Shown in pieces: positions 815 through 4,005 of a stretch of 4,005 nucleotides of DNA. Positions within the stretch are counted from its first letter, which is position 1. Every line of letters starts with the position of its first letter. Under the pieces are notes generated by a model. It did not search any database. It was not told where the DNA came from and saw only the letters and a list, made by a program, of their open reading frames with translations. This DNA is from a virus. Lineage: Duplodnaviria > Heunggongvirae > Uroviricota > Caudoviricetes. Where the stretch lies: positions 1 to 4,005 of the IMG/VR virus record IMGVR_UViG_2778261504_000006; one strand, written 5' to 3'. The position numbers and the translations under genes are program-made.

Positions 815-845
815 GCGGGGGCGAAATGCCCCCGTGTCTTTTTTC
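815..845 (+). terminator. Intrinsic-terminator-like hairpin plus T-tract in the E-FI intergenic gap (possible partial terminator or mRNA 3' stabiliser)
   Basis: GGGGGC (817-822) pairs with GCCCCC (828-833) around a 5-nt loop GAAAT; the stem extends by C816:G834 and G815:T835. It is followed by GTC and then TTTTTT (839-844). It sits 8 nt after the E stop codon. Confidence 0.45.
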
Positions 846-2569: not shown

Positions 2570-3322
2570 ATGCCAACACCAAATCCTCTGGCACCGGTAA
2601 AAGGTGCCGGTACCACCCTGTGGGTTTATAACGGTCAGGGTGATGCCTATGCAAACCCGTTGTCAGACGATAACTGGCAGCGACTGGCACAGGTAAAGGA
2701 TCTGACGCCGGGCGAGATGACGGCAGAACCCTACGATGATAACTACCTGGATGATGAAGACGCGGACTGGACCGCGACCGGGCAGGGGCAGAAGTCTGCA
2801 GGAGATACCAGTTTTACGCTGGCCTGGAAACCGGGAGAAGAAGGTCAGAAAGGGCTTATAGGCTGGTTTGAAAGCGGGGATGTGCGGGCCTATAAAATCC
2901 GTTTCCCGAACGGCACGGTGGATGTGTTCCGTGGCTGGGTCAGCAGTATCGGTAAGGCCGTAACGGCGAAGGAAGTGATCACCCGTACGGTGAAAGTGAC
3001 CAACGTGGGTAAACCTTCTGTGGCGGAAGAACGCAGCGAAATTACGCCGGTCACTGCGATTAAGGTGACGCCGACATCTGGTACGGTGGCAAAAGGGAAA
3101 ACAACAACCCTGACGGTTTCTTTTGAGCCGGAAAGTGCAACCGACAAAACGTTCAGAGCGGTTTCCGCCGATCCGTCAACGGGAACCATTGCTGTGAAAG
3201 ATATGGCGATCACTGTGACGGGGGTTAAGGCTGGAAAAGTGAGTATCCCCGTGATTTCCGGTAATGGTCAGTTTGCCACGGTAGCTGAAGTCACCGTTAC
3301 TGAAGCGGGCGCTGCAGGGTAA
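2570..3322 (+). CDS. V: Major tail tube protein, lambda gpV family, with a C-terminal Ig-like (Big_2-type) domain
   Basis: [86 protein letters not shown]...[40 protein letters not shown] matches lambda gpV. The C-terminal part (...[64 protein letters not shown]) has the Thr/Val-rich beta-sandwich pattern of the lambda gpV C-terminal Ig-like domain. Stop TAA at 3320-3322. Confidence 0.95.
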
Positions 3323-3335: not shown

Positions 3336-3767
3336 ATGTTTCTGAAAACCGAACAATTTGAATATAACGGTGTGTCCGTCACGCTTTCCGAGCTGTCTGC
3401 GCTGCAGCGTATCGAGCATCTTGCCCTGCTGAAACGGCGTGCAGAACAGGCTGAAGCCAGCGGTAACCTGCAGGTGAGCGTGGAAGACCTTGTCAGAACC
3501 GGCGCGTTTCTGGTGGCGATGTCCCTGTGGCATAACCATCCACAGAAAACGGAGTCACCATCAATGAATGAGGCTGTGATGCAGATCGAACAGGAGGTGC
3601 TCACCACCTGGCCTGCTGATGCCATTGCCCGGGCGGAAGACGTGGTGTTGCGTCTGTCCGGGATGAGCGGGGCTGTTCATGTGGATACGGATATCACCGA
3701 AGTGGCGAAAAATAACGCGCTTACTGATGATGATTTTTCTGCGGGAAAGTCTTCGACGGCGAGCTGA
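3336..3767 (+). CDS. G: Tail assembly chaperone, lambda gpG family (zero-frame product)
   Basis: MFLKTEQFEYNGVSVTLSELSALQRIEHLALLKRRAEQAEASGNLQVSVEDLVRTGAFLVAMSLWHNHPQKTESPSMNEAVMQIEQEVLTTWP...SAGKSSTAS matches lambda gpG, including the conserved ...SAGK ending where the frameshift occurs. Stop TGA at 3765-3767. Confidence 0.95.
   Translation: MFLKTEQFEYNGVSVTLSELSALQRIEHLALLKRRAEQAEASGNLQVSVEDLVRTGAFLVAMSLWHNHPQKTESPSMNEAVMQIEQEVLTTWPADAIARAEDVVLRLSGMSGAVHVDTDITEVAKNNALTDDDFSAGKSSTAS
3743..3749 (+). other. -1 programmed ribosomal frameshift slippery heptamer G GGA AAG (G to G-T recoding site)
   Basis: GGGAAAG at 3743-3749 sits in the G frame as gcG GGA AAG, encoding the terminal Gly-Lys of the shared region. 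This is the same heptamer and position as the lambda G/T frameshift site. The -1 frame is open from here to the window end and encodes a T homolog. Confidence 0.9.
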
Positions 3768-4005
3768 ATTTTGCCCTCAGACTGGCGCGAGAGATGGGGA
3801 GGCCTGACTGGCGCGCCATGCTTGCCGGGATGACATCCACCGAATATGCCGACTGGCGACATTTTTACCGTACGCATTATTTTCACGATACCCAGCTGGA
3901 TATGCATTTTTCCGGGCTGACGTACGCCGTACTCAGCCTGTTTTTTTGCGATCCGGATATGCATCCCTCTGATTTCAGTCTGCTTGTCCCCCGGCATGAG
4001 GAAGA
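3749..4005 (+). CDS. T: Tail assembly protein T, made only as the C-terminal part of the gpG-T fusion after a -1 frameshift at 3743-3749; 3' partial at the window edge
   Basis: The -1 frame from 3749 translates VFDGELNFALRLAREMGRPDWRAMLAGMTSTEYADWRHFYRTHYFHDTQLDMHFSGLTYAVLSLFFCDPDMHPSDFSLLVPRHEE, near-collinear with the T part of lambda gpGT (VFDGELSFALKLAREMGRPDWRAMLAGM...). It has no start codon or RBS of its own and is open to nt 4005. Confidence 0.9.

What the first reader, a model, noticed from the sequence alone, without database searches (positions are those of the whole stretch)
3743..3767. Conserved G/T -1 programmed frameshift site (GGGAAAG) producing the tail assembly chaperone fusion
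The slippery heptamer G GGA AAG lies 16 nt before the G stop codon, and the -1 frame from that point encodes a clear T homolog with no initiation signal of its own. In lambda this site gives a low fixed G:G-T ratio needed for tape-measure-directed tail assembly. It is a genuine recoding event that automated gene callers usually miss or report as two separate genes. It is well described for lambda, so it is expected rather than new.
Basis: partly seen in the sequence, partly recalled or inferred. Interest (0 to 1): 0.45.

Follow-up and report, generated by a model that had tools for sequence, protein, structure and literature searches.

The report
Lambda-type G/GT tail chaperone frameshift site
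This is the well-known ribosomal -1 frameshift site of phage lambda's tail-assembly chaperone genes G and T, sitting unchanged in a lambda-like E. coli prophage; it is real but ordinary, and gene callers still annotate it wrongly as two genes.

Summary
GGGAAAG lies at 3743-3749 and reads G_GGA_AAG in the G frame (3336-3767), five codons before the TGA at 3765-3767. The -1 frame is closed by a TGA at 3731-3733. It is open from 3734 to the window end.

The heptamer alone is not significant: 0.70 copies are expected by chance. The context is what counts.
- It is the only in-frame X_XXA_AAG in the seven genes of the window.
- It is the only in-frame slippery heptamer followed by a long -1 ORF.
- G and the -1 frame match the curated lambda G and T models (E 9e-49 and 1e-42).
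- The conceptual fusion ...SAGK|VFDGEL... matches a 290-position fused-GT phage family without a break. It is 74% identical to lambda gpGT across the junction.
- The T frame has no usable start. Its first ATG (3794) has no Shine-Dalgarno sequence, is absent in N15/phi80 relatives, and lies downstream of invariant T residues.
- In 75 of 78 loci from more than 20 enterobacterial genera, an in-frame N_NNA_AAR sits 0-5 codons before the G stop.

The verdict is an already known recoding site.

One side lead came up: a possible 71-nt structure 7 nt downstream. One pair covaries, but support in this window is weak.

The parts
3336..3767 (+). Gene G, the tail assembly chaperone (zero-frame product, 143 aa). 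It has a strong Shine-Dalgarno sequence (GGAGG) upstream.
   Evidence: ORF. PF06894 at 3e-50. TIGR01674 equivalog at 9e-49. SD duplex -10.8 kcal/mol.
3743..3749 (+). Slippery heptamer G_GGA_AAG, the -1 frameshift site. Gly-Lys is encoded in both frames.
   Evidence: Identical in lambda, phage 21 and ev099, and in all but one of 82 close relatives examined (81 keep it in frame; one carries an upstream 1-nt deletion).
3734..3767 (+). Stretch where both the G frame and the -1 (T) frame are open. Any shift that yields GT must occur here.
   Evidence: -1 frame stop TGA at 3731-3733 and G stop at 3765-3767.
3765..3767 (+). G stop codon (TGA), bypassed by ribosomes that have shifted.
   Evidence: GAGCTGA is invariant in 12 lambda/N15/phi80-type sequences.
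3749..4005 (+). T segment of the GT fusion in the -1 frame. It is partial: 85 codons, cut by the window end. Close relatives continue to 152 codons, giving a 290-aa GT.
   Evidence: TIGR01715 at 1e-42 starting at T-frame residue 5. PF06223 at 1.5e-10. phrog_32165 positions 140-223.
3794..3796 (+). First ATG in the T frame. Automated annotation uses it as the T start, but it is not a credible initiation site.
   Evidence: PGAP and other gene calls start T here. SD duplex is -3.0 kcal/mol against a background mean of -3.5. The codon is Phe in N15/phi80-type relatives, and invariant T residues lie upstream of it.
3757..3764 (+). Candidate only: 5' arm (CGGCGAGC) of a helix that starts 7 nt after the heptamer.
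   Evidence: Present in the MFE and centroid folds. 77% of cells are paired across 58 sequences, against 27-44% when the arm is slid.
3820..3827 (+). Candidate only: 3' arm (GCUUGCCG) of the same helix, lying within T codons M-L-A-G.
   Evidence: One pair is G-C in 19 sequences and A-U in 19, with no mixed case and at least 3 switches on a tree.

Best explanation
This is the programmed -1 ribosomal frameshift site of the lambda-type tail assembly chaperone genes, carried by a lambda-like prophage or phage of Escherichia.

Shown from sequence: most ribosomes translating G would read GGA-AAG and five more codons, then stop at TGA 3765. That gives the 143-aa chaperone G. The heptamer is in the right frame, the -1 ORF is open, and the two parts are homologous to lambda G and T.

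Inferred by homology with lambda: a small fraction of ribosomes slip back one base while tRNA-Gly and tRNA-Lys occupy GGA and AAG. In lambda the fraction is about 3-4%, a G:GT ratio near 30:1. Both tRNAs re-pair on GGG and AAA. The single E. coli tRNA-Lys (mnm5s2UUU) pairs weakly with AAG. Translation then continues in the -1 frame as ...SAGK-VFDGEL..., producing a fusion GT of about 290 aa.

From the literature on lambda: the G part binds the tape measure protein and the T part recruits the major tail protein V. The fixed low ratio is needed for correct tail assembly.

A downstream RNA structure may add modest stimulation. This is not established.
For: - Site, phase and spacing are identical to lambda: G_GGA_AAG, five codons, then TGA.
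- G matches TIGR01674 at 9e-49. The -1 frame matches TIGR01715 at 1e-42, from residue 5 of the -1 frame peptide, ten residues before the first ATG.
- The conceptual fusion matches the 290-position phrog_32165 as one stretch (positions 1-223, 438 bits). It aligns with the conceptual lambda GT across the junction at 74% identity.
- Nucleotide conservation rises from 0.54-0.69 in the 60 nt upstream to 0.87-0.96 from the site onward in 12 diverged phages.
- T residues E5, F8, A13, R14 and E15 are invariant in 7 lineages down to 35% identity, and they lie upstream of any start codon.
- In 75 of 78 loci from more than 20 enterobacterial genera, an in-frame N_NNA_AAG or N_NNA_AAA sits 0-5 codons before the G stop. 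It is followed by a -1 ORF of 114-162 codons wherever the contig is long enough.
- Gene order E-FI-FII-Z-U-V-G-T matches lambda, and the tape measure gene follows in relatives.
- Literature: PMC5009743 gives the mechanism, the 30:1 ratio and the roles of the G and T parts. PMC3296357 gives about 96% zero-frame reading and the tRNA-Lys thiolation effect. PMC4066793 Table S4 lists the gpG G_GGA_AAG cluster as a true case.
Against: - No protein or ribosome data exist for this element, so the shift itself and its rate are inferred by homology.
- The window ends inside T, so the whole T ORF and the tape measure gene were seen only in relatives.
- The bare heptamer gave only 0.28% frameshifting in an E. 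coli reporter without stimulators (PMC4066793 supplement). A native rate of a few percent therefore needs some context effect that I could not pin down here.
- The element may be a defective prophage that is never expressed.
Confidence: 0.93

Rival explanations
1. G and T are two independent genes, as annotated by PGAP and by the gene calls in public assemblies. T would be translated on its own from ATG 3794 as a 137-aa protein, and the heptamer would be incidental.
For: RefSeq annotation of the closest genome starts T at this ATG. So do the gene calls on six other contigs. The codon is ATG in lambda-type and CP-1639-type relatives.
Against: - The best anti-SD duplex upstream of ATG 3794 is -3.0 kcal/mol and abuts the start codon. 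That is weaker than the mean of all 20-nt windows (-3.5) and far weaker than G (-10.8) or FI (-9.4).
- The codon is TTC/TTT (Phe) in N15, phi80, mEp460 and Providencia-type relatives, where the next ATG is 8 codons further into the conserved domain.
- Fifteen T-frame codons upstream of the ATG are conserved at protein level, including five invariant residues. They are part of the curated T model.
- According to the reviews read here, lambda gpT is made as the frameshift product GT (PMC5009743, citing Levin 1993).
Confidence: 0.03
2. The site is a relic. The region belongs to a decaying or cryptic prophage, so the signal is inherited intact but no longer does anything in its host.
For: - The exact G protein is in 4087 blocks of the assembly collection, with up to three copies in one E. 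coli genome.
- Several copies are next to IS elements or have truncated neighbours.
- One relative has a 1-nt deletion that wrecks the G frame.
Against: All seven ORFs in the window are intact and in lambda order, with no frameshifts or stops. Near-identical regions occur in inducible Stx-converting phages. This rival concerns present use and not the nature of the site.
Confidence: 0.05
3. The GT fusion arises from RNA polymerase slippage on the A run, giving transcripts one base shorter or longer, rather than from ribosome slippage.
For: Transcriptional slippage does produce fusion proteins in some bacterial and phage genes (reviewed in PMC5009743). The CP-1639-type relatives have six A residues at this spot.
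Against: From general knowledge, productive slippage by bacterial RNA polymerase needs long homopolymer runs, and the window has only three A residues. What is conserved across the family is the in-frame A_AAG, with varied bases in front (GGG, GGA, AGA, GGT). That fits tRNA re-pairing and not run length. In lambda the effect of tRNA-Lys modification on the G:GT ratio points to the ribosome (PMC3296357).
Confidence: 0.01

Closest known systems
Phage lambda genes G and T (gpG / gpGT), -1 programmed frameshift at G_GGA_AAG (Levin, Hendrix and Casjens 1993; Xu, Hendrix and Duda 2004, 2013, 2014; as cited in PMC5009743)
   Same: - Same heptamer and same phase.
- Same five-codon spacing to a TGA stop.
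- Same junction peptide, SAGK|VFDGEL.
- Same gene order, V-G-T.
- The conceptual fusions are 74% identical across the junction.
   Different: - The C-terminal 30 residues of G before the site are unrelated in sequence and 3 residues longer.
- The codon after the slip is GTC here and GTG in lambda, so even the nominal GTG start used for 'T' in the lambda GenBank record is missing.
- Close relatives give a 290-aa GT, against 279 aa in lambda.
N15 / phi80-type G-T frameshift at G_GAA_AAG (annotated as a slippery sequence in the N15 record NC_001901)
   Same: Same gene family, same position, same five-codon spacing, same GAGCTGA stop context and same A_AAG element for the A-site tRNA.
   Different: The codon in the P site is GAA (Glu), which re-pairs imperfectly on GGA, so that heptamer is not canonical. 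The window has the canonical G_GGA_AAG form.
Stx-phage / CP-1639-type tail chaperone frameshift at A_AAA_AAG (cluster A_AAA_AAG_25, ECs1801, in PMC4066793)
   Same: Homologous G and T, same position and same spacing. Also found in E. coli prophages.
   Different: Different heptamer. G is only about 46% identical.
dnaX and IS911/IS3 -1 frameshift signals of E. coli (slippery A_AAA_AAG plus upstream SD and/or downstream structure)
   Same: Same kind of tandem tRNA slippage ending in A_AAG, read by the single tRNA-Lys. A possible structure starts 7 nt downstream, within the usual 5-8 nt range (PMC4066793).
   Different: - No SD-like sequence lies 6-17 nt upstream.
- The downstream structure is not established here.
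- The expected efficiency is a few percent rather than 15-50%.
- The products are chaperones and not a polymerase subunit or a transposase.

Membership tests
Lambda-type G/GT tail assembly chaperone with -1 programmed frameshift | The upstream ORF is a gpG-type tail assembly chaperone. | tested here: met
   TIGR01674 (equivalog) at 9e-49, 164.9 bits against a cut-off of 74.45. PF06894 at 3e-50.
Lambda-type G/GT tail assembly chaperone with -1 programmed frameshift | The overlapping -1 frame encodes a gpT-type domain. | tested here: met
   TIGR01715 (equivalog) at 1e-42, 144.8 bits against a cut-off of 77.35, for the 85 codons in the window. PF06223 at 1.5e-10.
Lambda-type G/GT tail assembly chaperone with -1 programmed frameshift | A slippery heptamer in X_XXY_YYZ phase lies near the 3' end of G, inside the stretch where both frames are open. 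| tested here: met
   G_GGA_AAG at 3743-3749. Both frames are open over 3734-3767. It is the only such site in G.
Lambda-type G/GT tail assembly chaperone with -1 programmed frameshift | The T frame has no start codon or ribosome binding site of its own upstream of its conserved residues. | tested here: met
   No ATG, GTG or TTG lies between the -1 frame stop (3731-3733) and 3794. The SD score at 3794 is -3.0 kcal/mol. Invariant residues lie upstream of it.
Lambda-type G/GT tail assembly chaperone with -1 programmed frameshift | The genes lie between the major tail protein gene and the tape measure gene. | tested here: met
   V (PF16461 plus Big_2) ends 13 nt before G in the window. The tape measure gene lies beyond the window end but follows T, with a 20-nt overlap, in a genome 97.9% identical to the window and in contigs encoding the same G protein.
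Lambda-type G/GT tail assembly chaperone with -1 programmed frameshift | The site and the ORF arrangement are conserved in diverged relatives. | tested here: met
   81 of 82 close relatives examined keep GGGAAAG in frame. 14 diverged phages and 75 of 78 genomic loci keep an in-frame N_NNA_AAR 0-5 codons before the G stop.
Lambda-type G/GT tail assembly chaperone with -1 programmed frameshift | A GT fusion protein is actually made at a low fixed ratio to G and is needed for tail assembly. | not testable with these tools
   Known for lambda from the literature (PMC5009743, PMC3296357). No expression data exist for this element.
Structure-stimulated -1 frameshift signals (dnaX, IS911, IS3 type) | A stable, conserved RNA structure starts 5-9 nt downstream of the heptamer. 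| tested here: inconclusive
   - An 8-bp helix (3757-3764 with 3820-3827) starts 7 nt downstream.
- One pair covaries (G-C 19, A-U 19, none mixed; at least 3 switches).
- For the window, z is -1.86 against dinucleotide shuffles and p is 0.22 against protein-preserving resampling. Lambda, N15 and phi80 give p of about 0.02.
- RNAalifold on 58 sequences does not predict the helix.
- PMC4066793 Table S8 reports a hairpin in 51% of this cluster, with a 7-nt spacer and a stability gain of 0.02 +/- 0.095.
Structure-stimulated -1 frameshift signals (dnaX, IS911, IS3 type) | An SD-like sequence lies 6-17 nt upstream of the heptamer. | tested here: not met
   The upstream sequence CTTACTGATGATGATTTTTCTGC has no GGAG- or AGGA-like core. 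PMC4066793 Table S4 also scores SD as 'N' for this cluster.

The most novel reading that the evidence does not exclude
The lambda-type G-T frameshift may not rely on the heptamer alone. A branched RNA structure of about 71 nt would start 7 nt downstream (window 3757-3827). It consists of an 8-bp closing helix plus an inner GC-rich hairpin formed by the LARE and DWRA codons. It would act as a moderate stimulator that sets the rate of a few percent.

Three things fit this. The closing helix has one base pair that switched between G-C and A-U at least three times without any intermediate. The bare heptamer gives only 0.28% frameshifting in a reporter. Lambda, N15 and phi80 fold more stably than protein-preserving controls.

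The window's own copy shows no such excess, and a weak hairpin call for this cluster was already published in 2014.
Probability: 0.3. Interest if true: 0.35.

Novelty: already known. Interest (0 to 1): 0.12.

Why it matters
The finding adds no new biology. It is the textbook lambda G/GT recoding site in one more lambdoid prophage, and an identical G protein is found on thousands of public contigs.

Its practical value is for annotation. RefSeq/PGAP and other gene callers split it into G plus a truncated 137-aa 'T' that starts at an internal ATG. That drops 15 conserved residues and hides the fusion. The correct annotation is G (3336-3767) plus a joined GT coding sequence (3336..3749, 3749..end).

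The side observation of a covarying helix 7 nt downstream would, if confirmed, help explain how a heptamer that shifts 0.28% on its own reaches the few percent needed for the 30:1 G:GT ratio.

Tried and rejected
- **Bare-motif significance.** Rejected as evidence: 0.70 copies are expected by chance.
- **Rfam scan.** A scan of the whole window at E up to 1 gave no hit, so no curated frameshift element covers this site.
- **Solved structures.** A sequence search with the fusion gave no hit at E up to 1.
- **Wide downstream folds.** Folding 3750-3850 and 3700-3800 gave z of -1.14 and -0.79, which is not significant.
- **Consensus folding.** RNAalifold gave a weak result on 15 sequences (-8.1 kcal/mol) and essentially nothing on 58 (-1.4 kcal/mol).
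- **Other slip sites in the two-frame stretch.** T_TTT_TCT at 3734-3740 is not an X_XXY_YYZ motif and is not conserved; lambda has CCT GTT TCT there.
- **Upstream SD stimulator.** None was found.
- **Independent T start.** Rejected.
- **GGAGG at 3798-3802 as an RBS for the ATG at 3818.** The spacing of about 15 nt is too long, the ATG lies inside the conserved domain, and the motif is absent from lambda.
- **Papers.** Xu et al. 2013 (PMC3762263) is not held. Levin 1993 and Xu 2004 were not available, so statements about them rest on reviews that cite them.
- **Source organism.** Not pinned down. The best complete E. coli genome is 97.9% identical over the window. The most similar T segment among the species-representative genomes is in Escherichia albertii, at 96% amino-acid identity.

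Full report
**What is in the window.** The 4005 bases carry part of a lambda-like late operon on the + strand:
- the C-terminal two thirds of the major capsid protein E (to 807);
- FI (859-1233);
- FII (1226-1579);
- Z (1595-2170);
- U (2167-2562);
- V, the tail tube protein, with a C-terminal Ig-like domain (2570-3322);
- G (3336-3767).

Each matches its Pfam family far above the cut-off. The best complete E. coli genome is 97.9% identical over the whole window (O55:H7 DEC5B). Stx2a-converting phages are 96% identical over the G-T part. Lambda itself is about 79% identical there.

**Check of the observation.** GGGAAAG is at 3743-3749 and is unique in the window.
- In the G frame it reads GCG GGA AAG, which is the phase needed for tandem slippage. 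Five codons (TCT TCG ACG GCG AGC) then precede TGA 3765-3767.
- The -1 frame has a TGA at 3731-3733 and is open from 3734 to the window end. From the site it reads GK VFDGELNFALRLAREMGRPDWRAMLAGM....
- As a bare 7-mer the match means nothing: 0.70 are expected by chance.
- In context it does mean something. It is the only in-frame X_XXA_AAG in the seven genes. The two other in-frame slippery heptamers (both in V) open -1 ORFs of only 6 and 17 codons, against at least 87 here.
- About 0.002 such motifs are expected in the nine in-frame positions available. Only 0.7% of off-frame stop-to-stop stretches in these genes reach 90 codons.

**What the two frames encode.**
- G matches the NCBI equivalog model for lambda G (TIGR01674, 9e-49).
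- The 85 -1 frame codons match the equivalog for lambda T (TIGR01715, 1e-42). That match starts at the fifth residue after the slip.
- In PHROGs, G matches positions 1-142 and the -1 frame matches positions 140-223 of one 290-position family, phrog_32165. This family is evidently built from fused GT proteins.
- The conceptual fusion (G residues 1-138 followed by VFDGEL...) matches that family as a single unbroken stretch, positions 1-223, 438 bits.
- It also aligns with the conceptual lambda GT straight through the junction at 74% identity.
- In the closest genome the same construction gives a 290-aa GT. In lambda it gives 279 aa.

**Can T be made on its own?**
- Between the -1 frame stop at 3731-3733 and position 3794 there is no ATG, GTG or TTG in the T frame.
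- Lambda has GTG right at the slip point, and its GenBank record uses it as a nominal T start. The window has GTC there.
- The ATG at 3794 is where PGAP and other callers start T. Its best pairing with the anti-Shine-Dalgarno sequence is -3.0 kcal/mol and touches the start codon. That is weaker than the average 20-nt stretch of the window (-3.5) and far weaker than G (-10.8) or FI (-9.4).
- In N15-, phi80-, mEp460- and Providencia-type relatives that codon is Phe.
- Five of the 18 invariant T residues in an alignment of seven lineages, down to 35% identity, lie upstream of it: E5, F8, A13, R14 and E15.
- These residues can only be translated by ribosomes arriving from G.

**Comparative evidence.**
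- All 82 close relatives examined carry GGGAAAG. In 81 it keeps the same phase and spacing; the exception has a 1-nt deletion upstream.
- In 12 diverged phages anchored on the G stop, majority-base conservation is 0.54-0.69 over the 60 nt before the site. It rises to 0.87 at the site and stays at 0.79-0.96 downstream. A_AAG and GAGCTGA are invariant.
- The end of G just upstream of the site is unrelated between the window and lambda and contains indels.
- Across 14 phage lineages the P-site part of the motif varies:
  - G_GGA_AAG in lambda, phage 21, ev099 and the window;
  - A_AAA_AAG in CP-1639 and a Stx2 phage;
  - G_GAA_AAG in N15 (where the record annotates it as the slippery sequence), phi80, mEp043, mEp460 and a Providencia phage.
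- Spacing to the stop is 5, 1 or 0 codons.
- A scan of one genome per species gave 78 loci in more than 20 enterobacterial genera. Of these, 75 have an in-frame N_NNA_AAG or N_NNA_AAA 0-5 codons before the G stop, followed by a -1 ORF of 114-162 codons where the contig is long enough.
- The three exceptions are a disrupted Shigella copy, a short contig that lacks the site region, and a distant MAG with A_AAA_AAC 12 codons before the stop.

**Mechanism.** The sequence fits tandem slippage. tRNA-Gly reading GGA can re-pair on GGG, and the single E. coli tRNA-Lys (mnm5s2UUU) can move from AAG to AAA.
- The literature on lambda supplies the rest.
  - The G:GT ratio is about 30:1. Neither protein is in the virion.
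  - The G parts bind the tape measure protein and the T part recruits the major tail protein (PMC5009743, citing Levin 1993 and Xu 2013, 2014).
  - About 96% of ribosomes stay in frame, and under-thiolated tRNA-Lys raises the shift and lowers phage yield (PMC3296357).
- In TP901-1, which has the same heptamer, destroying the site or fusing the frames permanently abolishes infectivity (PMC4493119).
- For this element these steps are inferred by homology and are not shown.

**Is there a stimulator?**
- No SD-like sequence lies upstream.
- Wide downstream windows do not fold better than shuffles, and Rfam has no match.
- However, both the MFE and the centroid folds contain an 8-bp helix, CGGCGAGC (3757-3764) with GCUUGCCG (3820-3827). 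It starts 7 nt after the heptamer and encloses a GC-rich inner hairpin (GGCGCG 3784-3789 with CGCGCC 3812-3817).
- Folding the 71-nt unit alone, against dinucleotide shuffles:

| Sequence | z |
|---|---|
| window | -1.86 |
| lambda | -4.84 |
| N15 | -4.33 |
| phi80 | -3.13 |
| mEp460 type | about 0 |
| Phytobacter type | about 0 |

- Much of this comes from the protein sequence. Resampling synonymous T codons gives p of 0.22 for the window and about 0.02 for each of lambda, N15 and phi80.
- In 58 distinct sequences aligned without gaps at the site, 77% of helix cells pair, against 27-44% when the 3' arm is slid. The measures that count pairs or pair types do not beat shuffles.
- RNAalifold does not recover the helix.
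- One pair is striking. Column 16 is the first position of a Gly/Ser codon in T. Column 84 is a synonymous third position of an Ala codon. The pair is G-C in 19 sequences and A-U in 19, never mixed. It switched at least three times on a neighbour-joining tree.
- A published survey already scored this gene cluster as having a possible hairpin with a 7-nt spacer in 51% of members, no more stable than background. The same survey measured GGGAAAG at 0.28% without stimulators, 3.8% with the IS911 stimulators and 43% with the IS3 stimulators (PMC4066793 supplement).
- The gap between 0.28% and lambda's few percent suggests that context matters. I rate a functional structure at about 0.3. It is weakest in the window's own sequence.

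**Comparison with what is known, and novelty.** All features that define the lambda G/GT recoding unit and can be tested on sequence are met. The one untestable feature is the protein-level event.
- The exact G protein occurs in 4087 blocks of the public assembly collection.
- The fused protein family exists in PHROGs.
- The gene cluster is listed as a true frameshift case in PMC4066793.
- The finding is therefore already known.
- The only practical point is that the closest RefSeq genome (PGAP) and the gene calls on public assemblies encoding the same G protein split the unit and start T at an internal ATG. Some curated phage records join the two parts correctly, for example phage 21.

Noticed in passing
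window 815-845 (+): A strong terminator-like hairpin lies right after the major capsid (E) stop at 805-807. The stem spans 815-835 (9 pairs, 7 of them G-C, 3-nt loop) and is followed by GTCTTTTTT, within the 51-nt E-FI spacer. It may be a read-through or attenuating terminator, or an mRNA-stabilising hairpin, in the late operon.
   Followed up: no
window 3757-3827 (+); alignment A4: A possible branched RNA structure starts 7 nt after the heptamer. In the closing helix one base pair is G-C in 19 homologues and A-U in 19, never mixed, with at least 3 switches on a tree. The fold is significant in lambda, N15 and phi80, but not in the window when the T protein sequence is held fixed (p 0.22).
   Followed up: partly
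L001 7293-7706; L098-L103 4459-4872 (equivalent to window 3794 onward): RefSeq/PGAP and the gene calls of public assemblies annotate T as a separate 137-aa protein from the internal ATG. This drops 15 conserved residues and misses the GT fusion. Curated records such as phage 21 (OL657228) use a joined CDS.
   Followed up: yes
L106-L113, L115-L120, L132, L134, L152 (genome-contig loci): Lambda-type G-T sequence (identical at the frameshift site, each 81% identical to the window's T at protein level) turns up on short contigs, many of them of very low coverage, in assemblies labelled Neobacillus, Oceanobacillus, Kitasatospora, Pseudomonas, Shewanella, Chromatium, Paenibacillus, Enterococcus, Pseudoxanthomonas, Psychrobacter and others. 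This is almost certainly lambda DNA contamination of those assemblies.
   Followed up: no
One IMG/VR relative, probably L080 (not checked), at the position equivalent to window 3734-3738: This relative has TTTT instead of TTTTT just upstream of the heptamer. The change throws G into the third frame, giving a 156-aa ORF with the heptamer out of phase. It is either a sequencing error or a decayed prophage copy.
   Followed up: no
L087, L090, L089, L094, L086 and L121-L180 at the G-T junction: Relatives use non-canonical or different shift motifs at the same spot: G_GAA_AAG, A_GAA_AAG, G_GTA_AAG, G_GCA_AAA, G_GGA_AAA and A_AAA_AAG. The G stop follows 5, 1 or 0 codons after the motif. Only the A_AAR part for the A-site tRNA is constant.
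   Followed up: partly
window 3798-3802 (+): An SD-like GGAGG lies inside the T frame, about 15 nt upstream of the second T-frame ATG (3818). It is specific to this lineage (lambda has GGCGA there). The spacing is too long for a normal ribosome binding site.
   Followed up: partly
window 3660-3742 (+): The last 30 or so residues of G before the shift site are hypervariable between lineages. They are unrelated to lambda's, contain indels and are acidic (TDDDF). Conservation resumes abruptly at the heptamer.
   Followed up: partly
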